Assembly (NCBI GenBank): GCA_018696595.1
Contig: JABHQW010000003.1
Location: 241,907-305,906 of the forward strand
Length of the DNA: 64,000 nt
Direction: 5' to 3'
DNA from: Candidatus Woesearchaeota archaeon
GTDB taxonomy: Archaea; Nanobdellota; Nanobdellia; Woesearchaeales; GW2011-AR9
The translations under genes and the position numbers were made by a program. Below the pieces are notes generated by a model. That model searched no databases. It worked only from the letters and a program-made list of their open reading frames with translations, and had not been told where the DNA came from. Every line of letters starts with the position of its first letter. The first letter of the stretch is position 1. Of this stretch, positions 4,586 to 60,391 are shown piece after piece.

Positions 4586-5080
4586 ATGGCTTATGCAGTA
4601 ACCCATATCATTCTAACAATCGTTGTCTTAGATTTATTTAGACATTATGTATTTGGAAAAAGAAGATTTCCGAGATATATGTTAGTGATTGGTGGGATTG
4701 CTGGACTTCTTCCAGACATTGATATTCCTCTTAGTTGGATTTATAATTTATTTACAGGACTCTCAGTTAATTTTCATGGTATGTTTACCCATTCATTAAT
4801 ATTCCCAATAATATTTGCTTTGATAGGAGTTATTTTCCATTTCAAAAAAGGGAATCATAAATGGGCAAAGATATTTTACATTATTGCTTTTGGATTGTTT
4901 TTCCATTCAATATTAGATTGTGCTTTTGGTGGTTACAAAACTTTCTTCTGGCCGTTCTACTTCATAAACTTCTGTCCACAATGGGGAATTGCTAGTTATA
5001 TGCAAAGTGTAGATGCAATTATATTAGTTGTTTGGTTGCTACATGAAGAAATACATAATAAGATCAAGGATTATATTTGA
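4586..5080 (+). CDS. Membrane-bound metal-dependent hydrolase (YdjM/DUF457-like)
   Basis: Small polytopic membrane protein with LLPDIDIPLSW and multiple His. Resembles the LexA-regulated YdjM family. Confidence 0.45.
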   Translation: MAYAVTHIILTIVVLDLFRHYVFGKRRFPRYMLVIGGIAGLLPDIDIPLSWIYNLFTGLSVNFHGMFTHSLIFPIIFALIGVIFHFKKGNHKWAKIFYIIAFGLFFHSILDCAFGGYKTFFWPFYFINFCPQWGIASYMQSVDAIILVVWLLHEEIHNKIKDYI

Positions 5081-6132
5081 AAATGAAAAAAGAGACAATT
5101 CCCGGAACTATCAGGATTCAAGTGAAAGGATTAATTCCTTATCAGAAAACTAAAACCTCTTGGAAGAAATGTTCTCAAAAGTTTCCCAAAGTAAAAGAGA
5201 TTGTTAAATTGTTTAAAGCACACAAAAACTTCAACATCCTAGTTGATAAAGTTAATCCAAGATTCCTTAAAGGACAATTGCTAAAAGGAAAAATTCAAGG
5301 TGCAAGAATTAACGTTCTTCCAGATGGAACAAAAATAGATAAAGCTTATTCTTTATTCGCAGACCATTTAACAGTTCATGATCAAAAGTCAAATGAACAT
5401 TGGGATGTTTTATATCAGAATCCTGGTGGAACGTGGGCTTATTGTTATTCTTTAGAAAAAAAAGCGAAAAACACTATTAAAAAATATAATAAAGTTCATC
5501 AATTTGATAAAGTTTATTCTAACTTAAACAAAAACGTTTCTTCAGCACTAAGAAATAAGAAAGATAACCTTGCCTTACCTATGTATACTTTATTGAAAAC
5601 AAGAATGAGAATTGGTAATGAAATTTATTATAAGTTACACAATCATAAAGGATTAACAACATTAAAGAAAAAAAATATTAAAATAAAAGGTAACAAAATT
5701 GAATTTCAATATGTGGGAAAAGATGGAGTCCCACAAGATGTTGTTAAAGAATTTCCTGTTTCTTACATTAAACGAATGAAAGAACATCTTAAAAAGATTA
5801 AAAGAGAAGATTTTGTTTTTGTTTCTAATTCCGGACACCCATTACCAGAGAAGGAATTCAAATTAGCTTTCAAGAGGTACTGCGGTAAAGAATTCTATCC
5901 CCATATAGTAAGATCTCATTATGCTACAAGTAAAGTTAAAAATTTCATTAAAGGTAAAAGAAAACTCAACAAAAAGGAAGTAAATAAGTTATATTTAGAA
6001 ATTGCTAGTTCTTTAGGGCATAAAAAGTTCTCAAAAAAAGATAATGTTTGGAAAGAAAGTTTCTCTGTTACTGTGGGACATTATATTGAGCCAAAGTTGG
6101 TTGAGAAGGTTAAAAAAATGGTTAGTAAATAA
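5077..6132 (+). CDS. DNA topoisomerase IB (eukaryote/poxvirus type)
   Basis: VGKDGV matches FLGKDS of human Topo I. RSHYATSKV matches KVFRTYNAS. GHYIEPKL matches the active-site SKLNYLDPRI. Start overlaps previous gene (ATGA). Confidence 0.7.
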   Translation: MKMKKETIPGTIRIQVKGLIPYQKTKTSWKKCSQKFPKVKEIVKLFKAHKNFNILVDKVNPRFLKGQLLKGKIQGARINVLPDGTKIDKAYSLFADHLTVHDQKSNEHWDVLYQNPGGTWAYCYSLEKKAKNTIKKYNKVHQFDKVYSNLNKNVSSALRNKKDNLALPMYTLLKTRMRIGNEIYYKLHNHKGLTTLKKKNIKIKGNKIEFQYVGKDGVPQDVVKEFPVSYIKRMKEHLKKIKREDFVFVSNSGHPLPEKEFKLAFKRYCGKEFYPHIVRSHYATSKVKNFIKGKRKLNKKEVNKLYLEIASSLGHKKFSKKDNVWKESFSVTVGHYIEPKLVEKVKKMVSK

Positions 6133-8313: not shown

Positions 8314-8772
8314 TTAATGCTTATAAATTTCATTAGTAAAGAAGTTCTTAATTATTTTCACACAAGGTGGAAATACTTTCTCTGGCAATTCTGAAAAGGA
8401 AAACCAACGCCACTCGACTATTTCATCTGGTTCCATTGTTTTAACATCTCCTTCAAAGTCTGTACAAATAAATCCGTTAGTTACAAAATGGTTGTCATGT
8501 ACAATTTCATCCGTCACACTAATTAGTTTTAAATTATTAGCTTTCAGACTAGTTTCTTCTTCTAACTCCCTCATAGCACTCTCTTTAATTGTTTGATGCC
8601 AATCAACTTTACCACCTGGCATAGTCCAAGTTCCTTCTCCATGTAATTCAGAACTAGCTTTCTCTGCATCAGAATGTCTTAAACCTAAAAGAACCTTATG
8701 ATTTCTAACAACCATAACTCCTACTCCTGCTCTTGGATATTTTGTCATAATAACAACAAGAAACAAATACAT
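8314..8772 (-). CDS. Nudix hydrolase
   Basis: Nudix box GGKVDWHQTIKESAMRELEEETSL. Confidence 0.7.
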   Translation of the reverse strand: MYLFLVVIMTKYPRAGVGVMVVRNHKVLLGLRHSDAEKASSELHGEGTWTMPGGKVDWHQTIKESAMRELEEETSLKANNLKLISVTDEIVHDNHFVTNGFICTDFEGDVKTMEPDEIVEWRWFSFSELPEKVFPPCVKIIKNFFTNEIYKH

Positions 8773-13146: not shown

Positions 13147-15114
13147 TTACTTTCGCTTCATTAACCAGTAAGCAACCACAATTACTGCAATTACTACCAA
13201 GATTAAAGCCACCCACGGCCAAGTTGATTTGCCTTCTTTAGTTATTTCTTCAGTTATTTCTTCAGTAGTTTCTTCAACAACTTCTTCGCCAACTTCAGCT
13301 ACTTCAGCCACTTCTTCAGCAACTAGCTCTTCTTCAGTTAACGGAGCCGCTTCTTCTTTTTGCCCAATTACAAAATAACTGAATCCAGGAGTTTCCGCGG
13401 TATAATGTTGATAAGTATCATCAGCAGAACCAAGGGTTGTCTTCAACTCTACCCACTTCTCATCGACATACCTAAACATAGCAACATTATTCTTACTAAA
13501 CTTGTTTTCTTTCAACCATGCTTTAGTTACTTTAAAGTCAATTGTTACTGATCCTTCTAAAGCTTCTTGAACATTATTCTCAGTAATCTTAACATTCTTG
13601 TAAACTTTGTTACTAAATGTTTTAACGTTACTCGGCAAACTAGTTTTCTTCTCAACTTTTAACCAAGCCCCGTAAATGGTTTTGTCAACTTTAAAGTTTA
13701 CTTCAGTAACACCAATTTCACCATTATCAACTTCCACGGTGGCTGTTTCTCCACTATTAATGGAAGCCCAAACTTCTTTTGCAAATAAACCCGCAGCACC
13801 TGTTCCGATACCACCAGAAGAACCACTATTACCACCACCACTAGATGATGCTGTACTTTCAGTATATTGGACACTACGCGCATTTCCAGCCTCGTCTGTA
13901 CAAACAACAGTAAAAGTAAAGGAAGTTTCAGATTGCAATCCAGAATAAGTAATTGTCCAGGAATCTTTAGTCCCAGTAATAGAACCAATATCTGAAGTAC
14001 AACTAGCAGCATCAACATTTGTACTTACATCAATTGTAAGTGAACTGGTTGATATAGTTGTAGATGTAAAAGAAATAGTTGGTGCAGTATTGTCAATCCA
14101 AAATGTTCTATTTACTGACCAAGACTCATTAATGTTATTAGCAGTATCATTCACATAAACAGTTAAGTTATAATGACCATCAGTAATATTTGCAGTACCA
14201 TAACTAATGTTCCAAGAACTTCCATTAGCAGCAGTAATGTTTATTAAATACTGAGACCCACTAGCATTACTAAAATTAAGAACAACCCAATCAACACCAG
14301 CTAAACCATCTGTAGCAGTTACGTTAAAAAGAACAACACCACTTAAGTTATTACTAGAGTTACCAGTTATGTTCAACTGAGTAACTGCTGGAGCAATAGT
14401 ATCATAAACAAACTCAAATCTAGTAGTACTATTCACATTGTTAACTGTATCGTTTGCCAAGATAGTTAAATTATATCTATTGTTACTCAAATTACCAGAC
14501 GCATTTAATGTAAAGTTCCAATAATTGCCATTAGCAACAGATGAGTTGTAGATATAAATTTGTCCACTACTACCATTACTAATATTAAACCTTACCCAAT
14601 CCATTCCAACTAAAGCATCTGTGGCAGTTACATTGAAAAGGAAAGTGTTAGTACTAAAATTACCTGCCGGTGTGTTAATAGTTACTACAGGAACAGTGTT
14701 ATCAACTGTAATATTTATCGAATAATTAGATGGCATATTCAATGCACCAGAAACATTGGACATGTTAATCATTAATTTATACATTCCATCTGTAAGAATT
14801 GAGGTGTCAAATAATGAAGATTGATTATTATCAAATTTAACGTCATTTAAAGTATTATTCCAAATAGTTTCGTTGTAAACAAAAGATCCATTTAATGCTT
14901 GAAAACGAAACGTCACATTTGTAATGTTGTTAGCGTTTGACCCATCTTGGTTCAATGTTACATTCAGCACAATACTCCCACTATAATTAGTCATATTTAC
15001 TGGTGCAACGACCGTCGAAGAACTAATTAGTCCAAAAGCAAAACAAGCTAATAAAACAAATACTAAAACAAATAAAACCAGGATCCCTTTTTTTTTGAAA
15101 TTCATATATATCAA
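13147..15114 (-). CDS. Large N-glycosylation-rich cell-surface (S-layer-like) protein with C-terminal TM anchor
   Basis: Signal-peptide-like N-terminus, dozens of N-x-S/T sequons, internal ~90-aa tandem repeat, Gly/Ser linker, acidic E-rich stalk, C-terminal WPWVALILVVIAVIVVAYWLMKRK. Confidence 0.6.
   Translation of the reverse strand: MIYMNFKKKGILVLFVLVFVLLACFAFGLISSSTVVAPVNMTNYSGSIVLNVTLNQDGSNANNITNVTFRFQALNGSFVYNETIWNNTLNDVKFDNNQSSLFDTSILTDGMYKLMINMSNVSGALNMPSNYSINITVDNTVPVVTINTPAGNFSTNTFLFNVTATDALVGMDWVRFNISNGSSGQIYIYNSSVANGNYWNFTLNASGNLSNNRYNLTILANDTVNNVNSTTRFEFVYDTIAPAVTQLNITGNSSNNLSGVVLFNVTATDGLAGVDWVVLNFSNASGSQYLINITAANGSSWNISYGTANITDGHYNLTVYVNDTANNINESWSVNRTFWIDNTAPTISFTSTTISTSSLTIDVSTNVDAASCTSDIGSITGTKDSWTITYSGLQSETSFTFTVVCTDEAGNARSVQYTESTASSSGGGNSGSSGGIGTGAAGLFAKEVWASINSGETATVEVDNGEIGVTEVNFKVDKTIYGAWLKVEKKTSLPSNVKTFSNKVYKNVKITENNVQEALEGSVTIDFKVTKAWLKENKFSKNNVAMFRYVDEKWVELKTTLGSADDTYQHYTAETPGFSYFVIGQKEEAAPLTEEELVAEEVAEVAEVGEEVVEETTEEITEEITKEGKSTWPWVALILVVIAVIVVAYWLMKRK
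14082..14628 (-). repeat. Intragenic tandem duplication (~270 bp x2) encoding two sequon-rich Ig-like repeats
   Basis: Protein repeats VTATDALVGMDWVRFNISNG...VYDTIAPAV and VTATDGLAGVDWVVLNFSNA...WIDNTAPTI. Confidence 0.55.
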
Positions 15115-23025: not shown

Positions 23026-24297
23026 ATGCTTGAAAGACTGGTAGAAAGTACTAAAACAGGTGATGTTGGACTAGGTTTAAACGATTCTTCTAATAGCGTT
23101 TTCGCTGAAAATGGTGCTATTGAAAGGTCTTTAGAAAAGAGCGTAAATTTTGTTTATGATACCATTTATGGAAATAGAGACACTTCTGAAATGTCTGATA
23201 AAGAAAAAGTAGCACGTTTAGCTGGTGCAAGTGCTTTAATTGCGGCCATGGGAACTTCTTACGTTTTAGCTGAATCAGTTTGTAGGGGATCAGAATTTAT
23301 TGGTAGAGGAACAGTAGAATTATTAGGAAAAGCAGGAAACCTTGCTTATAATAAATTAGAGTTTGTTGAAAACGCTACTGAGAAAGTTAAAGATGTTTAT
23401 AATCAACTTCAAACGAAAGTATCTAGACCAATAAAGAAAAAAATTGGCCGATTCTTTAAAAGATTTAAAGACCAGTTAGTAATTGGTGCTTCTGTAGCAA
23501 CATTAGCATTAAGTTATGGCGGAATTAAAGGATGTAATGAAGAACCTACAGCAATTGTTGAACCAGAAAGAGATTATAGAAACCCAATAAATAGTATTAC
23601 AGATTTATTTGAAGAACCTCAAGAAGAGGAAAGAGTACAGAGACCAACCTCAAGAACAATAGAACCACCAAGACCAGTTATTCAACAATCTAGAAGAGCC
23701 CCTGAAAGAGTAACACCTCAATGTTCAAACACAAGTTCAAGAAGTGAATATCAAAATGTTGCTAATGCCGCCCAATCAAGAGCAATTTCTCAAAGAACCA
23801 ATTATGCTTTTGATAATGCACCAACTAGTCCTTTAGAAGGACTAACTGGAAACACTGAACCAGGAAGAACAAAAATTAATTGGTTAAAAAACAGAAATAA
23901 ATGTAACCAGTTTGTTGGAGACGCATTAGTGCAAGCAGGACATAAAGTTCCAACTCATGAAATGAATGATAGAAATCATTCTTTACATTACAAAGAAATT
24001 GAACAATTCCCTCATGAAGATAATTATTTTACAAAAGTTACTGATTTCTGTGATATTAAACCTGGACACGTTTTAGTTATTGATCATCCAACTAGTGGAG
24101 AAAGTACTGCTCACGGAGAAATCATTGCTGATGTGAATTATCAAACTGGAACAATTAGAAGTTTCGGTGCCCACGCAGATGGTGCTTACAAAAAAACATT
24201 TGACATTTTCAAACACGCTAAACTTGTTACTGATGATGAAAATAATATACATTGGAAATTAGGCTTGGACAAAATCTATGTATTAAAACCAAAATAA
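23026..24297 (+). CDS. Secreted protein with C-terminal CHAP/NlpC-P60-like cysteine peptidase domain (putative cell-wall amidase/peptidase)
   Basis: Hydrophobic N-terminal segment and Pro-rich linker. C-terminal C-x..H pattern KCNQFVGDALVQAGHKV...GHVLVIDH...HGEII reminiscent of the CHAP Cys/His dyad. Confidence 0.4.
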   Translation: MLERLVESTKTGDVGLGLNDSSNSVFAENGAIERSLEKSVNFVYDTIYGNRDTSEMSDKEKVARLAGASALIAAMGTSYVLAESVCRGSEFIGRGTVELLGKAGNLAYNKLEFVENATEKVKDVYNQLQTKVSRPIKKKIGRFFKRFKDQLVIGASVATLALSYGGIKGCNEEPTAIVEPERDYRNPINSITDLFEEPQEEERVQRPTSRTIEPPRPVIQQSRRAPERVTPQCSNTSSRSEYQNVANAAQSRAISQRTNYAFDNAPTSPLEGLTGNTEPGRTKINWLKNRNKCNQFVGDALVQAGHKVPTHEMNDRNHSLHYKEIEQFPHEDNYFTKVTDFCDIKPGHVLVIDHPTSGESTAHGEIIADVNYQTGTIRSFGAHADGAYKKTFDIFKHAKLVTDDENNIHWKLGLDKIYVLKPK

Positions 24298-24299
24298 AA

Positions 24300-25658
24300 A
24301 TGGATCTAAAACCACAATTAGAAGAAGCTATTAAATGTACAAAGCAAGCAGGAACGTGGGTAAATCAACACCAGCCTAGTTTTGCTAGATTTGCAGATCC
24401 AATCATGATGAGAACTGCTGCTGGTTTAGGTTATATAGAAGGAGTGCAAGGAGTTATCGAATCCACTCAAGCACCGCCATTAATTCAAGCTGCATTATAT
24501 TCTGCCGCAGGTGTAGGAATGGTTAAATGGAATGAGATTGTTGTTTCTGAAATTAATCGTGGATTACATGAATATAATTCTAGACAAACCGTTGGAGATG
24601 GATTTAATTGGGCAAAGAGTTTATTATTATTAGGCACGGCTAGTTTAGCAGTTTCTTCTCTTACAGATAATTGTGATAGTCAAGGAACTCCTTTTCATGA
24701 AGAAAATGTTGAATACATAACTAAAGATTTTGTTCAAAAACCAGCAAATGACACTCTTAGGTTCCTTATTGGAGAATCTGAAGAAGAACTAAACGATTTT
24801 GAATCTGAGTTGCGCGATTTATTAGCTGAGGAAGATTTAGAATCGGACTTAGAAAAATTTGAACTTTATGAACCAGATGTGAGTTTATCAGATATTGTTG
24901 ACGAAGATTCTCAATCAATCAATTTGGTAGATATTGAACAATTAAAATCAAGGTTAGAAGAAACTCTTGCTAGACAAGCAATTATAGAAACACCATTACA
25001 TCCAAAAGCACAACAACATTATGAGGGGTACTCTGGAAGACATCATCATCGAATGGTTAAAAAGATTGAAAGAACTAGCCAATATGATGATTTAATACAA
25101 GATGCCGCAGAGAGATATAATATTGATAAAGAAGTAATGTCTGCTTTAATTATTAAAGAGAGTGATGGTAATTTTAAAGCAAAATCTCATGTTGGCGCTC
25201 GAGGTTTAATGCAAATCATGCCAAGGACTGGAAAATACCTTGCCGAAATAATGGGTGATAAATTTGTCGAACTAACTGGAAGAAGCACATTAAGAACTTC
25301 TGATTTGTATGACCCAAAAATTAATATTGAGATGGGTGCGTTTTATTTAAGATTTATTCATGATCGTTATGGAGACCGAATTTTGAAGAAACGTGAACAA
25401 GCAAGTAAAGATTATCAAGAATGGACTGCAGCTGACCGCTGGGATTTCACTATGGCTTGTTATAACCGAGGTCCAAGTGGAATGACTAGAAATATGATGA
25501 AAGCCCGTGCCGACACATTCTGGGATTTAGAAAAAGAACAAACTACTGATGAAGTGTTATTTTATGTTCCTAGAATCAGAGCAATTGCAAAAGTTCGTGC
25601 TGAATATTTAATGAAGCAATCTGGTGTTAATGAAGAAGTTGCGAGGTTGGTGCATTAG
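24300..25658 (+). CDS. Lytic transglycosylase (SLT domain) protein
   Basis: ESDGNFKAKSHVGARGLMQIMPRTG is the SLT family-1 signature (ES...GLMQ.MP.T), followed by the AxxY-like downstream motif. Preferred start at 24300 just after the upstream stop. Confidence 0.65.
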   Translation: MDLKPQLEEAIKCTKQAGTWVNQHQPSFARFADPIMMRTAAGLGYIEGVQGVIESTQAPPLIQAALYSAAGVGMVKWNEIVVSEINRGLHEYNSRQTVGDGFNWAKSLLLLGTASLAVSSLTDNCDSQGTPFHEENVEYITKDFVQKPANDTLRFLIGESEEELNDFESELRDLLAEEDLESDLEKFELYEPDVSLSDIVDEDSQSINLVDIEQLKSRLEETLARQAIIETPLHPKAQQHYEGYSGRHHHRMVKKIERTSQYDDLIQDAAERYNIDKEVMSALIIKESDGNFKAKSHVGARGLMQIMPRTGKYLAEIMGDKFVELTGRSTLRTSDLYDPKINIEMGAFYLRFIHDRYGDRILKKREQASKDYQEWTAADRWDFTMACYNRGPSGMTRNMMKARADTFWDLEKEQTTDEVLFYVPRIRAIAKVRAEYLMKQSGVNEEVARLVH

Positions 25659-47469: not shown

Positions 47470-47889
47470 TTATTCCTTCTTTTCTTCTTTAGGTGCTTCT
47501 TCAGCAGGAGCTTCATCTAAAGATTTAGAACCTTCCTTAAGAACTTTCAAGTTAACTTGTCGAATAATCTTAGTAACTAATTCTCCGCAAACAGTTCTAC
47601 GTTTCAAAAGACCTTTTTGTTTCTGTTTATTTCTATTCTTACCAGAAAATCCAACACCTTTACCGATCATAATTTGTTTTCTAGGTTCTTGGATACCTTT
47701 CCGCATTGGAAATCCACATTTGTCTGATCCACCAGTTATTTCAAATTCATACCCTTCAAATCCTAATAAGTCACCAGAAATCTTTTCACTAATTCTTCTT
47801 TTCAATAAATTGTCTGCTTCTGGACTTTTAATTTCTTTTTGATAAGTTTTTCCGTCCTTTGCTCCAATTACACATTTAAAGTCTACCAT
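47470..47889 (-). CDS. rps6e: 30S ribosomal protein S6e
   Basis: EITGGSDKCGFPMRKGI... and basic KKRRTV/KRR stretch match eS6. 139 aa with acidic/lysine tail. Confidence 0.8.
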   Translation of the reverse strand: MVDFKCVIGAKDGKTYQKEIKSPEADNLLKRRISEKISGDLLGFEGYEFEITGGSDKCGFPMRKGIQEPRKQIMIGKGVGFSGKNRNKQKQKGLLKRRTVCGELVTKIIRQVNLKVLKEGSKSLDEAPAEEAPKEEKKE

Positions 47890-50302: not shown

Positions 50303-50674
50303 ATGTTAAAAAAACTAATATTCCCACAAGAAATTGAAGTCTGGTATATTCTGCCAGCAATTAGAAAGAAAATATCACTAAAACTAACAGAAAATCTTGC
50401 TCAAAAAGATGTTGCAGAAATCATGGGCGTTACTCCTGCCGCAATTTCGCAATACAAAAAACAAAAGCGAGCCAAAGAAGAGATTTTTGATAAAGAAATG
50501 GAAAAAGAATTAGAAGTCTCTGTTAAAAATATCCTCAAAGATAACAATAATTTGGGTGATGAAATTATTCGATTAAACAATCTAATGAAAAAGAAAGGCA
50601 TTGTTTGTAAAATTTACAAAAATATTTGTGCTTTGAAAAAAAGTAAAGCCTGTTGCTATTGTAATAAAAAATGA
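50303..50674 (+). CDS. HTH transcriptional regulator with Cys-rich C-terminal tail (candidate Fe-S-sensing regulator of isc operon)
   Basis: HTH DVAEIMGVTPAAISQYKK. C-terminus CKIYKNICALKKSKACCYCNKK (five Cys). Stop overlaps iscS start (ATGA). Confidence 0.45.
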   Translation: MLKKLIFPQEIEVWYILPAIRKKISLKLTENLAQKDVAEIMGVTPAAISQYKKQKRAKEEIFDKEMEKELEVSVKNILKDNNNLGDEIIRLNNLMKKKGIVCKIYKNICALKKSKACCYCNKK

Positions 50675-53743: not shown

Positions 53744-54454
53744 CTATCCTTTTACAATCGTTCCTTTGAACCCTTCTAAATCATCAGAGAGTATTTTTCC
53801 CAACTCAGATTCCTGACAAATATAAAGAATGATAAATTTATTTTCCAAACCTAACTTTGCCGCTAAAGGATCTAAAGGAGTATTCAATCTTGGTACCCAT
53901 TTAGTGCCAACTAAATTCACCATCTTTTGCCAAGTTGCTTCCGGAAGATCTTCCGCTTCATCTAATCTCTGATGTTTCTCTCCTTTAGACAAATCTTTAA
54001 TTTCTAACGGAGACAAATCTTTAACAACTTCAAAATCAGAAATTTTAATAACTTTTTCAGCACCATAAGTTACAGCAAGAGTCATGGTTACGTAATCCGT
54101 ACTATTCCCTGGTTTCCATCCACCAGCAAAATAAATTCTGTAACCAGAAACTTCTTTTGTTGGATCTTTGATAACTTCTGGACAAACTTTTTCTACCCCA
54201 GAATCTTGAAATCTTTTGATAACATATTCGGCGTTTTCCCAAGTTGCTTCTATCCCTAACCAATCTTTTCGTTCATCATCAGCATCAGGTTCATCTGCTT
54301 GCTTTTTCCCAGCTAAAGCACCGCCACCAATAATAATCATAAACTCTTGCTCAGAATATTTTTGTACTAGTTCAATTAAACTATCAATGAAAGAATCGTC
54401 CCGCGTTTCAGGCGTTGGACTTACTTTTGACCCGCCGTATTTGATTATGTTCAT
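53744..54454 (-). CDS. pyrH: Amino-acid-kinase-family protein, probably uridylate kinase (archaeal PyrH type)
   Basis: IIGGGALAGKK and GGWKPGNSTD parallel archaeal PyrH VVGGGKLARKY / HPGHTTD. 236 aa. Confidence 0.5.
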   Translation of the reverse strand: MNIIKYGGSKVSPTPETRDDSFIDSLIELVQKYSEQEFMIIIGGGALAGKKQADEPDADDERKDWLGIEATWENAEYVIKRFQDSGVEKVCPEVIKDPTKEVSGYRIYFAGGWKPGNSTDYVTMTLAVTYGAEKVIKISDFEVVKDLSPLEIKDLSKGEKHQRLDEAEDLPEATWQKMVNLVGTKWVPRLNTPLDPLAAKLGLENKFIILYICQESELGKILSDDLEGFKGTIVKG

Positions 54455-54569
54455 TTTTTACCCCAGGTGAAAAATGAACGACCAAAATTATTTTTAATTT
54501 TGTGTATGTTCATTTTGTTGATTAAGAGAAAAGAAGACATTTATTAATGTTATGTAAAAAAAGAAAAAA

Positions 54570-54977
54570 TTAATGAAACTTCTTTTCTAAAGAATAGCCT
54601 TTCTCTTCCAATAAAAAAGCAACCTGATCAGCAACATTAGCATCTTTTACAGCAATGCCACATATTTTTGGAAATAAGTCCTCAGAACTGTGTTCTCCTA
54701 ATTTAACACTTCCATCTTCTTCAACAATTGAAATTACTCTTCGTAAAATATTATACAATTCAGTTTTCACATCAAAACATGCAGGAACTAATTCTCCCGT
54801 ACTTTCTCTTTTACGATAAGGCATTGCTTTTCCTTCAACAGCACGAGCTACTTCCACACAATCAGATCCAAAGATTGCATAAGGTAAATCTCCTTTTTCT
54901 ATTTCAAACAAAAACCCTTCACATTCCATAAAAGGATTTGTTTGATAATGTACATTTATTTTCTTTTCTAATTCCAT
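54570..54977 (-). CDS. Hypothetical protein (operon member 7 of 7)
   Basis: 135 aa. Preceded by GGAGGATAAATAAAATG. Confidence 0.4.
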   Translation of the reverse strand: MELEKKINVHYQTNPFMECEGFLFEIEKGDLPYAIFGSDCVEVARAVEGKAMPYRKRESTGELVPACFDVKTELYNILRRVISIVEEDGSVKLGEHSSEDLFPKICGIAVKDANVADQVAFLLEEKGYSLEKKFH

Positions 54978-54998
54978 TTTATTTATCCTCCGTTCTTT

Positions 54999-55439
54999 TT
55001 ATTCCAACTTAATTGTATAAGTAGGCCCTTTCTTTCCATCTTTATTTGCCCAAGCAACTTCTACTTTATCATCTGCTAAAGCCTCTAAACTAACATAATC
55101 ATGGTACAACATATCGCGCTTATCAAAACGTGAATCGTATTGATCCCTAGTTCTGATTTCATTAGTGGATATTTTTTTAATATCTCCTTCTGGACCAAAA
55201 TGATATAATGCTACCCACTCATTTGTTCCAACTCCTCCTTTAAATTCGTTCCAGTAACGTGATTCCCATTTAGCTGCTACTACATTATGTTCACCAACCC
55301 TTAAATGTTCCACATCGGTAGGATGTTCTCGGTATTGCTTTCCTCCTCTTTCCGAAACACGTTTCAGAATTTTTTCAACCCCAGGCAAAAATTCTTCTGC
55401 TTCAATAATTTTCTCTTCTAATCTTTTTTCAGTTTTCAT
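54999..55439 (-). CDS. Hypothetical protein (operon member 6)
   Basis: 146 aa. Preceded by GGAGAGATAAAATG. Start overlaps previous gene. Confidence 0.4.
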   Translation of the reverse strand: MKTEKRLEEKIIEAEEFLPGVEKILKRVSERGGKQYREHPTDVEHLRVGEHNVVAAKWESRYWNEFKGGVGTNEWVALYHFGPEGDIKKISTNEIRTRDQYDSRFDKRDMLYHDYVSLEALADDKVEVAWANKDGKKGPTYTIKLE

Positions 55440-56017
55440 TTTATCTCTCCAAATTCTTCTTCCAAAAACGATTTCATTGTTTTATCAATAAGCTCCTGTT
55501 CAAACCCAATCAAATGCTGATACAAGCCTGCAGCATGACTCAGATCAGAACAAGGACCACCACCACCCAAATCAACCCCATAACGTTTGTTAAGATTTAC
55601 AACCATTGTTGGAACTTTACCAGAATCCAATAATTCTTGTTCTAAAGGAGCATATCCTGCAAGAGCTTTTTCTACAGTAGTAAAAGCCGCTACTTCTTCA
55701 AAATCTGCAATTGGAAAACCAGGACCACCATACCCAAAATCAATCTCTGAAGTTCTTGCATAAACTAAAACTTCAACATCAGTGTCTGCAAACCTTTCTT
55801 CAAAATGATTAGGATTAAGATCTAATAAACACATTCCCAATTGTTGCCTTTCTTTTTCTTCATCAATAAGAACATCAAACAACAATCGAGAAGGATCACT
55901 AAGTGAATATATTGGTTTACTTTGTAAACTGGTATATTCCGGAACCCTTTCTAGACTTTGTTCTAAACCATTCTCGGGATCTAATCCTCTACTAATTTTC
56001 AATTCTAATCTTTTCAT
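55436..56017 (-). CDS. Hypothetical protein (operon member 5)
   Basis: 193 aa, Gly-rich GYGGPGFP / DLGGGGPC. Preceded by GGAGATGAAATAAAATG. Confidence 0.4.
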   Translation of the reverse strand: MKRLELKISRGLDPENGLEQSLERVPEYTSLQSKPIYSLSDPSRLLFDVLIDEEKERQQLGMCLLDLNPNHFEERFADTDVEVLVYARTSEIDFGYGGPGFPIADFEEVAAFTTVEKALAGYAPLEQELLDSGKVPTMVVNLNKRYGVDLGGGGPCSDLSHAAGLYQHLIGFEQELIDKTMKSFLEEEFGEIK

Positions 56018-56039
56018 TTTATTTCATCTCCATTAATTT

Positions 56040-56393
56040 CTAAATCATTCTGTCTGATAACATCCCTAAACCATAACCCACCGTGTGAGCCATTAATGGA
56101 ATAATAGGATTCAAAAACGATGCTAGCGTTAGTGTTAAAGCAAAATCTGTATCAGAATATGCTCCAACACTCATTACCAAACCCGCAGGAACTATACCTG
56201 CAATAAGGCCAACTTCTACATTTTCTTCTAAAGGAATTCCAGATCCTTGACCCATAAAACCTTGACCAGTTGCCCCTTCATAAACACCCATCCCTAACGC
56301 GTAAAGAGTAACCCCTCCAAAATACGCAAGTCCGCCACCGAAACAAGTACCTTTCAATATGTCTTCGAGTTTTCCCATTTTATTTCTCTCCAT
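56040..56393 (-). CDS. Gly-rich small membrane protein (operon member 4)
   Basis: 117 aa. Alternative start 15 nt downstream (56378) because the initiation cassette is duplicated (ATGGAGAGAAATAAAATG). Confidence 0.4.
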   Translation of the reverse strand: MERNKMGKLEDILKGTCFGGGLAYFGGVTLYALGMGVYEGATGQGFMGQGSGIPLEENVEVGLIAGIVPAGLVMSVGAYSDTDFALTLTLASFLNPIIPLMAHTVGYGLGMLSDRMI

Positions 56394-56416
56394 TTTATTT
56401 TTTCAATTTGATTACT

Positions 56417-56902
56417 TTAACAAACATATTTAGCATATCTTGTTCTTGCTTGTTGAATTTCTTCCACATTTGGAATTTCTCGAATTATTTTTTCATACAC
56501 TTCCTGCCAAGATTTAGGATCACTTTTTGGAGCTCTTGTTTTTTCTCTAATCTCGGTAGGATCAACAATTCCTTCCCAAAAATAATTTACAAAAGCAACC
56601 TCTCCTAAATTATTGTGATTATCTATACCTGCGGTTATTACTAACCAAGGTATGTATCTTCTTTCTGCTTCTTTTGCCAACTCAAAGCCTAATATTTCTG
56701 GCTGATACCCTTCAGCTTTTGGCAATTCTAAATCAAACATTCCGATGGCATATGGGCCTTGCCGAAGTTTTTGTAATCCCTCTTCATAATTTACAGCAAA
56801 ATCTACATGGACCCCATCAATAGATTCAAAATAAACTTGTGCAGCTTTCCTATTTTCTTCTCTATCGTCCACAACTAAAATTTCTAATTTATTTCCAGCC
56901 AT
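56417..56902 (-). CDS. Response-regulator receiver (REC) domain protein (operon member 3)
   Basis: LVVDD acidic pocket, phospho-acceptor-like D in IGMFDLELP, conserved T/K positions. No output domain. Confidence 0.55.
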   Translation of the reverse strand: MAGNKLEILVVDDREENRKAAQVYFESIDGVHVDFAVNYEEGLQKLRQGPYAIGMFDLELPKAEGYQPEILGFELAKEAERRYIPWLVITAGIDNHNNLGEVAFVNYFWEGIVDPTEIREKTRAPKSDPKSWQEVYEKIIREIPNVEEIQQARTRYAKYVC

Positions 56903-56904
56903 TT

Positions 56905-57231
56905 CTATTCACATTTCATTTTCATATATTCTGGAGTTACCTCTAGAACTTTGATCGAATCCCCTATAGTTTCAGCACTAACAGGAAAATACAAATTAGA
57001 TTCTTTCCTACTGTTAGAAGGAATTATTGCAAAAGTTTCTTCATTAGGCATACCCGCATATCTAAAACCTTGATCAACAAAATTATGAGAACCATTATTA
57101 CAAGTAACTTTTTCTCCAACTGTCAAAACATGTTCTTGTTTCCTAAACTCTTCCACGCTTTTTTCGTTTCCACAACCACTAGTCCCTAAAAGACCAGCCA
57201 ATAGTGCTAACGTCACTGCTGTTTTTTTCAT
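56905..57231 (-). CDS. Small lipoprotein (operon member 2)
   Basis: Signal MKKTAVTLALLAGLLGTSGCG with bacterial-style lipobox L-x-G-C. Confidence 0.45.
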   Translation of the reverse strand: MKKTAVTLALLAGLLGTSGCGNEKSVEEFRKQEHVLTVGEKVTCNNGSHNFVDQGFRYAGMPNEETFAIIPSNSRKESNLYFPVSAETIGDSIKVLEVTPEYMKMKCE

Positions 57232-57259
57232 TTTATTTCCTCCATTTTATTTTTTAAGT

Positions 57260-57448
57260 TTAAATTTTGTAAACACTATCAACTTCTTCCCCTGTTTCAA
57301 ATACTTTGTAACCAACCTTTGGCTCTTTACATTCAACAGTCGGACAATACAATTTACCTAAACCCTCCAACATTTCTTCGATCAAAATCATTTCAACCTC
57401 TTCAGGTTTGATTACAATCACTTCCAACGGATCATACATTCCTATCAT
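57260..57448 (-). CDS. Small acidic protein (operon member 1)
   Basis: 62 aa. Preceded by GGGGTGAAATAAAATG. Confidence 0.3.
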   Translation of the reverse strand: MIGMYDPLEVIVIKPEEVEMILIEEMLEGLGKLYCPTVECKEPKVGYKVFETGEEVDSVYKI

Positions 57449-57570
57449 TTTATTTCACCCCATTTCATTTACTAATATATAACAACTAATCAATACTAAA
57501 ACGTTTGCAAGAAATAATCAATCAAAATAAGAATAATGGCCAAAATACCTTAATAAGAACAAGAACCAGA

Positions 57571-58536
57571 CTATTTACTAGGCAGGTATATCTCTTTGTA
57601 ATACTTCAAAACTCTAAAATAATTATAATCTCTAATTGCTCCCGGAAATTGAATTTTCATTTGATCAATAATTTCCTGAAACTGTTCAAAATTTTTAACT
57701 TCTAGATCAAACTCAAAATCAAACTCACTAATCGCTTTATCAACTTTAAGAATATTAGGATGAACCTGACAAAAACTAATTAATTTATTAATCACTTTCA
57801 AATCATCTAATTCCATATTAACACGATAACGATTATACCCTAACTTAGAAAACTCAATACTAACTCTTGTGCCGACAATTACTTTTTTACTAATCAATTG
57901 TTTAATCCGATAAATAATTGTCATACTACCCATTTTAGTCTTCAGAGCAATATCTTTAATGGGAGTTCTAGCATTCTTAGCCAACATTTTCAATATTTCT
58001 AAATCTAAATCATCAACTTTAACTTTCTCTGCTTCATAAATAACCCAATTCTTTTCACTAACATCTTTCTTTTCTTCTGTCAGATAAGCTCTTCTAAAAG
58101 AAATTTGTTCTGTAACTAAAGCAACATTATAATGTTTAACATGTTTTCTAAACTTTTCTAAAACTGTATTCCAAATTTTTTGAAAATCATCAACTTTCTC
58201 AACATAAAAACCAATTATCACGTCCCAATCTCCAACTACTCGAGCAACAAGGCCCGCTTCGGGCAACTCAATAAGATATTTTATTAATTCATCATCAACA
58301 TTAATATCTCGTTCATAAAAATCAACATAAACACGAAAAAAGAAGTAACCTAATTTAGATGCATTCACCAAAGTGTTATAACCTTTAACCAATTTCTCAT
58401 CTTCTAACCTTTTGATATTATAATTAACAACGTTCTTGCTAATCTTTAATTTCTTAGCAATTTGAATGTTGCTTTGCCGAGCATCTAAGTCTAATATCTT
58501 AAGAAGCTTCTGATCACGTTTGTTTAATTTAATCAT
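57571..58536 (-). CDS. Tandem Lrp/AsnC-family transcriptional regulator (two HTH-RAM modules)
   Basis: Two repeats of the Lrp pattern: LDxxDxxIL..L..NAR.....IAK..G.S...V..R...L...G.I.G. Confidence 0.7.
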   Translation of the reverse strand: MIKLNKRDQKLLKILDLDARQSNIQIAKKLKISKNVVNYNIKRLEDEKLVKGYNTLVNASKLGYFFFRVYVDFYERDINVDDELIKYLIELPEAGLVARVVGDWDVIIGFYVEKVDDFQKIWNTVLEKFRKHVKHYNVALVTEQISFRRAYLTEEKKDVSEKNWVIYEAEKVKVDDLDLEILKMLAKNARTPIKDIALKTKMGSMTIIYRIKQLISKKVIVGTRVSIEFSKLGYNRYRVNMELDDLKVINKLISFCQVHPNILKVDKAISEFDFEFDLEVKNFEQFQEIIDQMKIQFPGAIRDYNYFRVLKYYKEIYLPSK

Positions 58537-58603: not shown

Positions 58604-60391
58604 TTAATAAATAAATAAACTTTCTGTATCTCCATTAATCTTACGATAGAAGCTATATCCATATCTAGAACCATAAGTCTTTGCATAACTCCCAAACTTT
58701 TTTCTTAGTTCTTCATCTTTTAATAATTTTGTAGGGAATAAGAAAAGATAAGCAAATGAATAATCTTTCTTCAATACTTGTTCTTTAATTATTGATTCTA
58801 AAACTGATAAAAGATGATTTAAATCCGTAGGTTTAATAAAAATATGAAGATTGGGGTCATCACCCTCAGAACAATTTAAAATAGAAAGCTTAAGCAAACT
58901 TTTAATTTGATTAAGACTAAAAAAACCAGGGAAATTATAAATCTGAATATCCAAACATTTATGAATTTTATGTTCTTTTTTACAAATTCCCGACATTGCA
59001 GTTAAAAAATTATAAGGTAAGAAATCATAACGAGGACCACAGGTTACACTCTTAATTGCTACGGGAAATTTGCCAACAAACCACTCTCCTAAGCCAATCA
59101 TTCTTTTAGAAATTTCTGATTGTAAAATCAACCCCTGTTTACTATTATAACCCCCGTGGGGTTTTCGACCATTTCGGTTTATATGTTGAAAATTATCCCC
59201 TCTATATGCATGAGATTCCACAAAAGAGATTTCAGCATCATCAAAACTATTAACAAATTTATTAAATCCCTCCTCAGCAATTATTTTACTTCCTCCACAG
59301 GATTCACTAATTTTTTCTTTATAATATAAAAGTTCATCTTCAATTTTTACTTTCTTTAAATGACTTAATAAATCAATTCCAGATAAAAATTTATCAAAAG
59401 CCTCTAAAATAGATCCAATATCTTCATAATATTCTTTTTCATGCTTAACAGCTTCGATGGGGTCATATTTTCTTTTCCAATCTTTTAATCCTTCAAGAAC
59501 AGGTTTAGAATTAAAATAACCAAAATAAACTACAAACCCTTCTTTATTTTCAGATAACCTAACGTAAGGGATTATACTTATTGCAAATTCTGCAAAATGA
59601 GTAGAGGGTTCTGAGTCGCCTTCCTTAAATAAACCAACGCTTAGTAATAACTTTTGTGATTTAGCAGCATGAAGATTTCGCAATACTAACTTTTTCATAA
59701 CGGTTTTTTGATCTTCTTCTATAATCTTTAATTTGTACTGGTAATAATCTGAAGTAACAGCACTTTTAATCTCTTTATTCTTTTTGTCAATAAAAGAATT
59801 TATTGCATCCATAATCTTATTTTTATTGTCCACAATATACATCCCTGCAAGTTTTTTGTGAATTGTTTCACGATCTTCCATAAATTCTTTAATATCTAAT
59901 ACATGAATTAAATGTTGTAAAGCAGCATTTAATCCCCTTATTTTTGTCATGATTTCCGAGAATTCATCTTTTACAGAATCTTGTTTTAATTTTTTCTTAA
60001 ATTGACCAAAGTATCTTGAAAAATTCTTAATATAAACATCTTCAAATAGAATAACAACTTGTTCTTGTGCTTTTTTTATATCTTGATTCATTTCTGGATA
60101 ATGTGTTTTAATATCTTCTTCTAACTCTTCTATATATTTAACTTCTTTTTTTTCTTTCCGATTAATACTAGGGCTCCATCGCCCAATATTTTTAATTGAT
60201 TGCCCGACAGAATCAGAATCGCCTTTTTCCAAACCGCTTTCAATATTTAAAAAATAACGATATACCCCTTCAAGAGAATTAAACAAAAGTTGAACTTTTT
60301 TTTTAGTTTTTTTGAGCTCAGATTTTAAACCATCAATAGTTCTTTTTTCTTTTTTAGCAACATATCTTTTTAATTGGATCATATCAAACAC
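58604..60391 (-). CDS. Large hypothetical protein (595 aa)
   Basis: Long coding ORF. Lys-rich helical N-terminal half, C-terminal half with several Cys/His. No recognisable motif. Confidence 0.45.
   Translation of the reverse strand: MFDMIQLKRYVAKKEKRTIDGLKSELKKTKKKVQLLFNSLEGVYRYFLNIESGLEKGDSDSVGQSIKNIGRWSPSINRKEKKEVKYIEELEEDIKTHYPEMNQDIKKAQEQVVILFEDVYIKNFSRYFGQFKKKLKQDSVKDEFSEIMTKIRGLNAALQHLIHVLDIKEFMEDRETIHKKLAGMYIVDNKNKIMDAINSFIDKKNKEIKSAVTSDYYQYKLKIIEEDQKTVMKKLVLRNLHAAKSQKLLLSVGLFKEGDSEPSTHFAEFAISIIPYVRLSENKEGFVVYFGYFNSKPVLEGLKDWKRKYDPIEAVKHEKEYYEDIGSILEAFDKFLSGIDLLSHLKKVKIEDELLYYKEKISESCGGSKIIAEEGFNKFVNSFDDAEISFVESHAYRGDNFQHINRNGRKPHGGYNSKQGLILQSEISKRMIGLGEWFVGKFPVAIKSVTCGPRYDFLPYNFLTAMSGICKKEHKIHKCLDIQIYNFPGFFSLNQIKSLLKLSILNCSEGDDPNLHIFIKPTDLNHLLSVLESIIKEQVLKKDYSFAYLFLFPTKLLKDEELRKKFGSYAKTYGSRYGYSFYRKINGDTESLFIY

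What the first reader, a model, noticed from the sequence alone, without database searches (positions are those of the whole stretch)
54570..57448. Seven-gene operon of small unknown proteins with a stereotyped, partly duplicated translation-initiation cassette
Seven consecutive minus-strand ORFs (62-193 aa) are separated by <=25 nt. Six are preceded by GGAG(R)(R)AAATAAAATG, and three show the longer duplicated form AAAAAATAAAATGGAGRRAAATAAAATG. Products include a stand-alone REC receiver domain, a bacterial-style lipoprotein, a Gly-rich membrane protein and three cytoplasmic proteins with Gly-rich loops. None matches a family I recognise. Local GC looks slightly higher than flanks. An orphan REC domain inside an operon of unknowns suggests a signal-gated module, possibly acquired horizontally.
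Basis: seen in the sequence. Interest (0 to 1): 0.65.

Follow-up and report, generated by a model that had tools for sequence, protein, structure and literature searches.

The report
Strain-variable orphan-gene operon in a Woesearchaeote
A real seven-gene operon in a marine Woesearchaeota (DPANN archaeon) genome encodes proteins with no known relatives. Its repeated "cassette" before each gene is the organism's strongest ribosome-binding context, and in at least one case the repeats flank a gene that related genomes lack.

Summary
Seven minus-strand ORFs (54570-57448) lie 0-28 nt apart. I found one clear TATA-like element upstream, none by a strict scan inside, and a T-tract after the last gene. 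Six starts carry a GGAG/GGTG Shine-Dalgarno core plus (A)ATAAA-ATG; two, not three, have the exact long form.

The motif is far above chance, with 10 AAATAAAATG against 1.9 expected and 7 of them here. It is also the context of the ribosomal protein S6e gene, so it reads as this archaeon's high-efficiency initiation site.

The genome is a Candidatus Woesearchaeota MAG. g3 is a divergent REC domain and g2 a lipobox lipoprotein, which is normal in DPANN. g4 is a Gly-rich membrane protein. g1, g5, g6 and g7 are clade-restricted orphans. g6 has a confident predicted beta fold with no PDB or viral match.

Codon usage is native. The locus is a flexible island, always between an Lrp-like regulator and an AA-kinase/Orc1 pair, with variable content. 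REC and g4 are optional. Island genes are less diverged at synonymous sites than the flanks, and g4 is bracketed by two cassette copies.

Function is unknown; my best guess is an accessory cell-envelope module. Interest is moderate.

The parts
57475..57482 (-). TATA-like element (TTATATAT), 34 nt upstream of the g1 ATG; candidate operon promoter
   Evidence: A regex scan found only this element and the AA-kinase promoter on the minus strand of 54300-57800. Its geometry matches the TATA boxes at about -31 to -34 of the window's leaderless genes.
57446..57470 (-). g1 initiation region AAATGAAATGGGGTGAAATAAAATG (degenerate long form; GGTG core)
   Evidence: repeat family D1
57260..57448 (-). g1: 62-aa acidic soluble protein with a conserved LGKLYCPxxxCKE motif; orphan family
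   Evidence: Present in 7 of 8 related islands. dN/dS about 0.5.
57257..57264 (-). TTTAAACT overlapping the g1 stop, 33 nt before the g2 ATG; possible internal promoter (inferred only)
   Evidence: Read from the sequence. Relatives have a T8 tract plus TTTAAATA at -32 before their lipoprotein genes.
57229..57255 (-). g2 initiation cassette, long form AAAAAATAAAATGGAGGAAATAAAATG
   Evidence: D1, D3, D4
56905..57231 (-). g2: 108-aa lipobox lipoprotein (signal peptide, Cys20); belongs to an expanded, fast-evolving paralogous family ending ..EVTPEYxKxxCE
   Evidence: There are 1-3 paralogs per island, and some in L005 carry a Tat motif. dN/dS 0.3-0.7.
56417..56902 (-). g3: 161-aa divergent single-domain REC (CheY-like) protein. 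It starts 2 nt after the g2 stop, and its first codons (ATGGCTGGAAATAAA) look like a degenerated cassette.
   Evidence: Pfam PF00072 31.1 bits against a gathering score of 30.2, N-terminal half only. PDB receiver 3a0u E = 2.5e-4 with DD and D57 aligned. dN/dS 0.11.
56376..56403 (-). g4 initiation cassette, long form AAAAAATAAAATGGAGAGAAATAAAATG; upstream copy of the direct repeat that brackets g4
56040..56378 (-). g4: Gly-rich (19.6%) membrane protein with 2-3 TM segments. 112 aa from the SD-led ATG at 56378, or 117 aa from 56393. Among the eight loci compared it occurs only in the window's lineage.
   Evidence: Absent in L005/L006, where REC is followed directly by g5.
56015..56033 (-). g5 initiation cassette ATGGAGATGAAATAAAATG; downstream copy of the direct repeat that brackets g4
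   Evidence: The same 19-mer precedes g1 and the f7 family (secreted beta-rich protein) in L005 and g1 in L001.
55436..56017 (-). g5: 193-aa acidic soluble orphan protein with a disordered N-terminal ~70 aa carrying (EVT)PEY; predicted alpha/beta C-terminal part
   Evidence: No relative outside its own 50% cluster among 1.84 billion representatives.
55437..55450 (-). g6 initiation region GGAGAGATAAAATG inside the end of g5; ATGA stop/start overlap (translational coupling)
54999..55439 (-). g6: 146-aa soluble orphan protein; confident predicted fold (N-terminal helix plus long antiparallel beta-sheet) with no structural match
   Evidence: AF2 pLDDT 90, pTM 0.85. Foldseek against PDB and BFVD gave no hit at E <= 0.001, best TM about 0.3. 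Present in 8 of 8 related islands.
54975..54991 (-). g7 initiation cassette GGAGGATAAATAAAATG
54570..54977 (-). g7: 135-aa soluble orphan protein
   Evidence: Present in 4 of 8 related islands.
54556..54569 (-). T-tract TTTTTTCTTTTTTT immediately after the g7 stop; candidate archaeal oligo-T terminator
   Evidence: Read from the sequence. That oligo-T tracts terminate archaeal transcription is general knowledge.

Best explanation
This is a lineage-specific accessory operon. It sits in a flexible genomic island of a marine Candidatus Woesearchaeota clade, always between an Lrp/AsnC-type regulator gene and an amino-acid-kinase-family gene followed by orc1/cdc6.

Expression (inferred from sequence). 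Transcription starts at a TATA-like element 34 nt before g1, runs through seven cistrons and ends at a T-tract. Most genes in this genome are leaderless, so each internal cistron needs its own ribosome entry site. That site is the 'cassette': a GGAG/GGTG Shine-Dalgarno core, a 7-10 nt A-rich spacer ending in AAATAAA, and ATG. The region is essentially unstructured. Two junctions instead use stop/start coupling: g2/g3 (2 nt gap) and g5/g6 (ATGA overlap).

The same context precedes the ribosomal protein S6e gene. I therefore read it as the high-efficiency form of the organism's normal initiation signal, which implies the operon is well translated.

Recombination side effect. The 20-30 nt sequence is repeated before many island genes, so it may also act as a substrate for recombination. 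g4 is bracketed by two copies, while a relative has one copy and no g4. Several homology-block ends between genomes also fall at or near these junctions.

Products. They are a surface lipoprotein (g2), a small Gly-rich membrane protein (g4), a divergent CheY-like receiver (g3) and four acidic soluble orphan proteins (g1, g5, g6, g7).

Function (low confidence). My best guess is a strain-variable cell-envelope or host-interaction module of an episymbiotic archaeon. The optional receiver would add a phosphorylation-dependent input.
For: Organism and stability. The proteins are MBT4111145-51 of a Candidatus Woesearchaeota MAG. The identical seven-gene arrangement occurs on at least 24 contigs from independent assemblies.

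Operon anatomy.

Genome-wide initiation pattern. TATA boxes lie at about -31 for leaderless first genes, and SD plus an A-rich spacer precedes 14 of 61 other genes. The S6e gene carries GGAGAATAAATAAAATG. Start regions are unstructured: MFE -0.27 against -2.85 kcal/mol, p = 0.0014. Motif enrichment is shown.

The cassette recurs before most island genes in five related genomes.

These are real genes. dN/dS is 0.11-0.72, and codon usage is native.

Island behaviour. Anchors are conserved and content varies across eight loci.
- Against L005, flank dS is 1.3-1.7, while g3, g5 and g7 have dS 0.29-0.39.
- Against L002, three flanks have dS 0.8-1.3, while g1, g5 and g6 have dS 0.15-0.23.
- Block identities run about 9 points higher in the island than in the flanks.
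- g4 is flanked by cassette repeats. One stretch, L005 8508-8531, aligns to both copies.

Localisation. DPANN archaea are rich in lipoproteins (PMC12462473). The lipoprotein family is expanded, includes Tat variants, and has among the highest dN/dS in the island.
Against: 1. There is no expression data. Promoter, terminator and operon status are read from sequence only. A possible internal TATA (TTTAAACT, 57257-57264) could split off g1.
2. No protein other than REC has a known relative, so the envelope/host-interaction function rests on localisation signals and island behaviour.
3. The 'ATGGAG' extension of the SD is confined to the island (0 of 61 other genes). Translation alone does not explain it.
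4. Not every gene shows low divergence. Against L005, g1, g2 and g6 have dS 0.64-1.18. Against L002, g2 has dS 0.64 (possibly a paralog comparison), and the Lrp flank is as low as the island genes at 0.27.
5. Gene-content breakpoints are expected to fall between genes anyway, because only intact genes survive selection. Only the g4 case shows repeat-flanked geometry directly.
6. One supporting locus (L006) may be a chimeric assembly.
Confidence: 0.5

Rival explanations
1. The repeated junction is a dedicated recombination site rather than merely a ribosome-binding site. On this view the island is an integron-like but integrase-less array. Promoterless orphan-gene cassettes are swapped between Woesearchaeota genomes at the conserved ~20-27 nt ATGGAG..AAATAAAATG sequence, and translation signal and exchange site are one and the same.
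For: - The ATGG[AG]G extension is island-specific: 4/7 against 0/61.
- Identical 19-20-mers occur before non-homologous genes in the same genome, for example three consecutive genes in L005.
- g4 is bracketed by direct cassette copies, with a single copy at the empty site.
- Island divergence is mosaic and below that of the flanks.
- Whole genes are gained or lost at junctions in L001, L002, L005, L010 and L012.
Against: - No recombinase was found. The Lrp-like regulator was identified only by HTH/AsnC domains. Pfam scans of neighbouring ORFs and of the 20 largest ORFs in the window returned none.
- The repeat is not palindromic, unlike attC, and does not fold (MFE about 0).
- The core motif also occurs at the S6e gene and one other gene outside the island.
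- Ordinary homologous recombination between any short repeats gives the same footprint.
- Selection for intact genes places breakpoints between genes regardless.
Confidence: 0.12
2. The operon is a signal-gated module in which the orphan REC protein (g3), once phosphorylated, controls the activity of the neighbouring unknown proteins g5-g7 as an obligatory part of one machine.
For: - REC has the acidic pocket and the phospho-acceptor Asp.
- It is under the strongest purifying selection in the island, dN/dS 0.11.
- The order REC-g5-g6-g7 is kept in a second lineage, L005 and L007.
Against: - REC is missing from five of eight related islands that keep g5 and/or g6.
- No histidine kinase is among the 20 largest ORFs of the 64-kb window.
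- The C-terminal half of the domain is divergent, and no K109 equivalent could be placed.
Confidence: 0.15
3. The island is a remnant of a mobile element or an anti-virus defence / toxin-immunity locus. Such loci are typically variable, orphan-rich and exchanged between strains.
For: Gene content is variable at a fixed locus, exchange within the clade is recent, and the genes are many small orphans. A window-specific 595-aa low-GC insertion lies next door.
Against: - PADLOC and PHROGs gave no hits above noise.
- There are no relatives in IMG/VR viral contigs, GenBank phages or PLSDB plasmids.
- No integrase, tRNA or RNA-family hit was found in the window.
- Codon usage is native.
Confidence: 0.08

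Closest known systems
Shine-Dalgarno-led internal cistrons of archaeal operons, in genomes where first cistrons are leaderless
   Same: A GGAGG/GGTG core complementary to the conserved 16S 3' end (general knowledge). Spacing is 7-10 nt and the context is A-rich and unstructured. First genes in the window have TATA boxes at about -31 and no SD, while internal genes have SDs.
   Different: The spacer is unusually stereotyped: AAATAAA directly before ATG in 5 of 7 genes. The SD is usually preceded by AT, giving ATGGAG, which is not seen at any of 61 other genes. In two junctions the A-rich block is repeated on both sides of the SD.
Flexible (hypervariable) genomic islands of marine prokaryotes that carry strain-specific cell-surface genes (general knowledge). 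Genomic islands are also reported in DPANN nanohaloarchaea (PMC10266531).
   Same: The chromosomal location is fixed between conserved core genes, and gene content is strain-specific. Many products are surface-exposed (lipoproteins, membrane and secreted proteins). There are signs of exchange between diverged genomes.
   Different: The island is very small (3-6 kb) and made almost entirely of small orphan proteins. Codon usage is native. It lacks glycosyltransferases, giant adhesins and mobile-element genes. It is organised as a single tightly packed operon with a repeated junction.
Single-domain response regulators (CheY-like; Pfam PF00072)
   Same: g3 aligns to receivers over beta1-alpha3 with D12, D13 and D57 in place, and is of stand-alone size.
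   Different: It scores only just above the Pfam threshold. The C-terminal half is not recognisable, and there is a ~40-aa C-terminal extension. No kinase or chemotaxis genes are nearby.
Integron gene-cassette arrays
   Same: A tandem array of promoterless small genes of unknown function, separated by a recurring short sequence. Whole-gene presence/absence varies between relatives.
   Different: No integrase was detected, and I did not look for an attI site. The repeat lies 5' of each gene, is not an imperfect palindrome, and coincides with the ribosome-binding site.
Archaeal lipobox lipoproteins (AliA/AliB-dependent; PMC12462473)
   Same: g2 and its paralogs have an n-h-c signal peptide ending in a lipobox Cys. 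Some paralogs in relatives have a twin-arginine signal.
   Different: The mature domain (~88 aa, ending EVTPEYxKxxCE) has no known relative. The -3 position of the window copy is Thr rather than Leu/Val/Ile.

Membership tests
Response regulator receiver domain (REC, PF00072) | Sequence match to the family profile above the curated threshold | tested here: met
   31.1 bits against a gathering score of 30.2, E = 2.9e-7. Only profile positions 1-59 of 111 are covered. Weak hits to many NCBIfam response regulators. PDB 3a0u E = 2.5e-4.
Response regulator receiver domain (REC, PF00072) | Acidic pocket (D12, D13) and phospho-acceptor Asp (D57) | tested here: met
   ILVVDDRE and GMFDLELP align to ILVVDDEP and VILDIEMP of receiver 3a0u.
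Response regulator receiver domain (REC, PF00072) | Conserved Thr/Ser (T87) and Lys (K109) of the switch | tested here: inconclusive
   T90 in WLVITAG is a plausible T87 equivalent by eye. No alignment covers the region where K109 should lie.
Response regulator receiver domain (REC, PF00072) | Cognate histidine kinase or phosphodonor | tested here: not met
   No HisKA/HATPase_c hit among the 20 largest ORFs of the window. The rest of the genome was not available.
Lipobox lipoprotein | Signal peptide followed by [LVI][ASTVI][GAS]C | tested here: inconclusive
   g2 is MKKTAVTLALLAGLLGTSGC, with positions -2/-1/+1 fitting and -3 = T. NCBIfam gives only weak lipoprotein-signal hits. Paralogs in L005 have canonical LSGC and LTAC after SRRKFL. 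Lipidation is not testable here.
Shine-Dalgarno translation initiation region | Core complementary to the 16S anti-SD (CCUCC), placed 5-10 nt before the start codon | tested here: met
   GGAG, GGAGG or GGTG lies 7-10 nt before the ATG in six of seven genes. The organism's own 16S 3' end was not in the window, so complementarity rests on the conserved archaeal sequence.
Operon (single transcription unit) | Same strand, short gaps, one promoter, one terminator | tested here: inconclusive
   Gaps are -4 to 28 nt. One TATA-like element lies upstream, a strict scan found none inside, and a T-tract follows the last gene. A possible TTTAAACT lies before g2. There is no transcript data.
Flexible genomic island | Conserved flanking core genes with strain-specific gene content between them | tested here: met
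   The Lrp-like gene on one side and AA_kinase + Orc1 on the other are seen wherever the contig extends to that side. The gene sets between them differ.
Integron cassette array | Tyrosine-recombinase integrase next to the array, and palindromic attC sites | tested here: not met
   No recombinase domain was found in the neighbouring ORFs scanned. The repeat does not fold, and no inverted repeat was reported at the junctions.
Known anti-phage defence systems / prophage | Match to PADLOC or PHROGs models, or presence on viral contigs | tested here: not met

The most novel reading that the evidence does not exclude
The initiation cassette doubles as a dedicated exchange site. In this reading the island is an integrase-less gene-cassette system in which small orphan genes, each with its own ribosome-binding site, are shuffled between Woesearchaeota genomes at the conserved ATGGAG..AAATAAAATG junction. 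The conserved core (g1, lipoprotein, g5, g6) would be a previously unknown envelope-associated machine that includes at least one new protein fold (g6), optionally gated by a CheY-like receiver.
Probability: 0.1. Interest if true: 0.7.

Novelty: new variant of a known kind. Interest (0 to 1): 0.35.

Why it matters
If this reading is right, the locus is a compact example of how a reduced, probably host-dependent DPANN archaeon keeps one small, highly translated, rapidly reshuffled patch of genome for surface-related functions.

It also offers candidates for new families or folds:
- g6 has a confident predicted structure with no match in the PDB or among viral models.
- g5 has no relative among 1.84 billion representative proteins.
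- g7 has no hit in Pfam, NCBIfam, PHROGs, PADLOC or PDB sequences, but was neither modelled nor deep-searched.

The stereotyped SD context gives a ready-made, testable 'strong RBS' for a lineage that has no genetic tools. None of this answers a long-standing question by itself. Orphan-rich islands are common in DPANN genomes.

Tried and rejected
Negative database searches:
- Pfam, NCBIfam, PHROGs and PADLOC on all seven proteins and on about 30 island proteins from relatives. Only REC and lipoprotein-signal noise came back.
- PDB sequence and profile searches for g5, g6, g7 and the lipoprotein family: nothing.
- A deep HMMER profile search of g5 against 1.84 billion representatives. It found only its own cluster plus a spurious repeat protein, P0101.

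Structure:
- The AlphaFold model of g5 was too poor to use (pLDDT 48.6).
- Foldseek of the good g6 model against the PDB and BFVD gave no significant match.

Ideas rejected:
- Paralogy among g5, g6 and g7: hhalign probabilities are below 1%.
- g4 as a relative of the Gly-rich L005 6258-6596 protein: no similarity.
- The 262-aa partner of a distant g6 homolog (L009) as a g5 relative: none.
- Viral or plasmid origin: no hits in IMG/VR, phages or plasmids.
- Foreign origin by composition: native codon usage.
- An RNA family in the window: none.
- Using L006 as evidence of recombination: set aside. It switches from 100% identity with L005 to 100% identity with L002 inside g5, so it may be an assembly chimera.

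A position-weight scan for internal promoters was too blurred to be informative.


Full report
**What is there**

The seven minus-strand ORFs exist as described: g1 57260-57448 (62 aa), g2 56905-57231 (108), g3 56417-56902 (161), g4 56040-56393 (117, or 112 from the ATG at 56378), g5 55436-56017 (193), g6 54999-55439 (146) and g7 54570-54977 (135). The gaps are 28, 2, 23, 22, -4 and 21 nt.

The exact proteins are on record as hypothetical proteins MBT4111145-51 (HOE37_04770-04800) of a Candidatus Woesearchaeota MAG. The same seven-gene arrangement lies on at least 24 contigs from independent NCBI, ENA, JGI and Logan assemblies. It is therefore not an assembly artefact.

**The initiation 'cassette'**

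With a looser definition, GG[AT]G + 0-5 nt + ATAAAATG, six of the seven starts match. The long form AAAAAATAAAATGGAG..AAATAAAATG is exact at g2 and g4 and only approximate at g1.

The signal is well above chance:
- AAATAAAATG occurs 10 times in the window against 1.86 expected, and none of 100 shuffles reached 10. Seven copies are in this 2.9 kb.
- It sits at 5 of 7 starts here against 2 of 61 elsewhere (p = 4e-5).

Reading the upstream regions of all genes shows how this genome initiates. Most genes have a TATA box (tttataaa or similar) starting about 31-34 nt before the ATG and no SD, so they are leaderless. Fourteen of 61 have a GGAG/GAGG/GGTG core followed by an A-rich spacer.

The two outside genes with the full motif are ribosomal protein S6e (47470-47889, GGAGAATAAATAAAATG) and the ORF at 50303. 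The region from -25 to +20 of the seven island genes is essentially unstructured, with mean MFE -0.27 against -2.85 kcal/mol (p = 0.0014).

I therefore read the cassette as the high-efficiency version of this archaeon's ordinary SD-led start. It is needed because these are internal cistrons in a mostly leaderless genome. g3 and g6 rely on stop/start proximity instead, with a 2-nt gap and an ATGA overlap.

One feature is not explained by translation. The SD is preceded by AT (ATGG[AG]G) at 4 of 7 island starts and at 0 of 61 other genes. The first codons of g3 (ATGGCTGGAAATAAA) also resemble a degenerated cassette.

**Operon signals**

On the minus strand of 54300-57800, a strict TATA scan finds only two elements:
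- TTATATAT at 57475-57482, 34 nt before g1.
- The promoter of the next gene downstream, at 54547.

A 14-nt T-tract follows the g7 stop. A TTTAAACT at 57257-57264, 33 nt before g2, could be an internal promoter. Relatives have a T8 tract plus TTTAAATA at the same distance before their lipoprotein genes. No transcript data were available.

**The proteins**

- **g3** is a REC domain. Pfam gives 31.1 bits against a threshold of 30.2, covering only the N-terminal half. D12, D13 and D57 align to solved receivers. The C-terminal half is divergent. No histidine kinase is among the 20 largest ORFs of the window.
- **g2** has a signal peptide ending in a lipobox Cys20. Lipobox proteins are prevalent in DPANN archaea (PMC12462473), so this does not indicate bacterial origin.
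- **g4** is 19.6% Gly with 2-3 TM segments.
- **g1, g5, g6 and g7** are acidic and soluble, with no hit in Pfam, NCBIfam, PHROGs or PADLOC. PDB sequence and profile searches of g5, g6, g7 and the g2 family were also empty; g1 was not run against the PDB.

The families are tiny and confined to one clade. g5 has 15 hits at >=71% identity, g6 has 9, and g7 has 6. A full HMMER profile search of g5 against 1.84 billion representatives found only its own cluster. g5, g6 and g7 are not paralogs of each other.

**Are they real, native genes?**

dN/dS against orthologs is below 1 throughout: REC 0.11, g6 0.16-0.30, g7 0.25-0.34, g5 about 0.35, g1 0.5 and g2 0.3-0.7. Flanking housekeeping genes mostly give 0.05-0.16, though the AA kinase reaches 0.37 against L005.

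GC3 (0.207 against 0.221) and codon usage are native. The slightly higher GC comes from codon position 1 and reflects a Glu/Gly/Val-rich composition.

**Context in relatives**

I compared eight loci from the clade: the window, L001-L003, L005, L006, L010 and L012. The region lies after an Lrp/AsnC-type regulator and before an AA-kinase-family gene plus orc1/cdc6 (seen wherever the contig reaches that side). The content between these anchors differs:
- g6 is present in 8 of 8 loci.
- g1 and at least one g2-family lipoprotein are each present in 7.
- g5 is present in 6.
- A secreted beta-rich protein of 219-301 aa is present in 5, but not in the window.
- g7 is present in 4.
- REC is present in 3 loci representing 2 lineages.
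- g4 is present only in the window's lineage.

The cassette precedes most island genes in these relatives too, often as the identical 19-mer ATGGAGATGAAATAAAATG.

Several island genes are less diverged at synonymous sites than the flanks.
- Against L005, REC, g5 and g7 have dS 0.29-0.39, while SerRS, AA kinase, Orc1 and Lrp have 1.3-1.7. g1, g2 and g6 in the same comparison have dS 0.64-1.18, so the pattern is a mosaic.
- Against L002, g1, g5 and g6 have dS 0.15-0.23, while SerRS, AA kinase and Orc1 have 0.8-1.3. Here g2 has dS 0.64 (possibly a paralog comparison), and Lrp is as low as the island genes at 0.27.

blastn blocks tell a similar story, and several block ends fall at or near junctions. 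The clearest case is g4. The window blocks 57246-56376 and 56038-54594 both align to L005 and overlap there in one 24-nt stretch (8508-8531). g4 is thus bracketed by two direct cassette copies where L005 has one copy and no g4.

L006 switches from 100% identity with L005 to 100% identity with L002 inside g5. It may be a chimeric assembly, so I do not rely on it.

**Interpretation**

The best-supported reading is a flexible, clade-specific accessory operon. Its cistrons are each driven by a strong, unstructured SD start. The repeated start sequence also behaves as a recombination substrate, perhaps only as a side effect.

The function is not established. Three things point weakly to a strain-variable envelope or host-interaction role in an organism of a lineage generally considered host-dependent: the lipoprotein expansion with Tat variants and fast evolution, the membrane and secreted members, and the island behaviour.

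The REC protein is optional across relatives. Native composition argues against acquisition from outside the clade. No evidence links the locus to viruses, plasmids or known defence systems.

**Verdict**

The finding is real and tidy but of moderate interest. It is an orphan-rich variable island of a familiar general kind, with a nicely stereotyped RBS, one confidently predicted fold (g6) with no PDB or viral match, and a hint that cassette junctions take part in gene shuffling.

Noticed in passing
window 54455-54530 (minus strand), upstream of the AA-kinase-family gene 53744-54454: In the window, L002 and L005, a ~64-nt insert sits directly before the gene's ATG. It begins with a copy of the gene's own first 9-12 nt (ATGAACATA). 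It forms a 20-codon upstream ORF whose TGA overlaps the real ATG (ATGA). It also contains a long hairpin (AAAATGAAC..CAAAATTA-AAAA-TAATTTTG..GTTCATTTT). L010 and L012 lack it and keep the TATA (TTAATAAA) about 25 nt before the ATG. It may be a 5' partial duplication creating a leader peptide or attenuator.
   Followed up: partly
window 58604-60391 (minus strand): A 595-aa ORF (592 aa in NCBI, MBT4111143), with low GC (0.27-0.29) and no Pfam or PADLOC hit. It is an insertion found only in the window's lineage, between the Lrp-like gene and the 221-aa lipoprotein-like gene. It is absent at the same place in L001, L002, L003 and L005.
   Followed up: partly
window 55870-55920 (g5 N-terminus) and 56920-56950 (g2 C-terminus); also L001, L002, L003, L005, L010, L012: The peptide (E)VTPEY occurs both at the conserved C-terminus of the lipoprotein family (..LEVTPEYLKVECE) and in the disordered N-terminal region of the cytoplasmic g5 family (..ERVAEVTPEYTSLQSK). 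It is encoded by a near-identical 18-nt stretch (16/18 in L001). It could be a shared short linear motif or a footprint of an old fusion or duplication.
   Followed up: partly
L005 6613-6951 and 6954-7355: Two g2-family paralogs carry a twin-arginine signal (SRRKFL) followed by a canonical lipobox (LTAC, LSGC). These would be Tat-exported lipoproteins in a Woesearchaeote.
   Followed up: no
L001 3690-4355, L002 5907-6566, L003 6695-7600, L005 5143-6048, L012 660-1565: A 219-301-aa island protein has a signal peptide or N-terminal TM anchor and a strand-like sequence of alternating hydrophobic residues that resembles a bacterial outer-membrane beta-barrel. It has no Pfam hit and is absent from the window's version of the island.
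   Followed up: no
L006 8890-9090: L006 is 100% identical to L005 up to about 8890 and 100% identical to L002 from about 9090, switching inside g5. It is either a natural recombinant or a chimeric metagenome assembly.
   Followed up: yes
window 5077-6132, 24252-25658, 13147-15114: The window also encodes a eukaryotic-type topoisomerase IB, a 468-aa protein with an SLT lytic transglycosylase domain (a peptidoglycan-cleaving enzyme in an archaeon) and a 655-aa protein with bacterial Ig-like domains (Big_13).
   Followed up: no
L001 3171-3455 and L002 5379-5663: A 94-aa first gene of the island in some relatives carries an HExxH motif (HELMH), with weak hits to DUF5700 and Peptidase_M78. It may be a minimal metalloprotease-like protein. 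It is absent from the window.
   Followed up: no
L009 73-1301: The most distant g6 homolog found (42% identity) lies outside the island context. It is tightly coupled to an unrelated 262-aa orphan gene and followed by a 560-aa gene that I took, from reading its sequence, for an Elp3-like radical-SAM/acetyltransferase (no domain search run). g6 may therefore work as a pair with whatever gene precedes it.
   Followed up: partly
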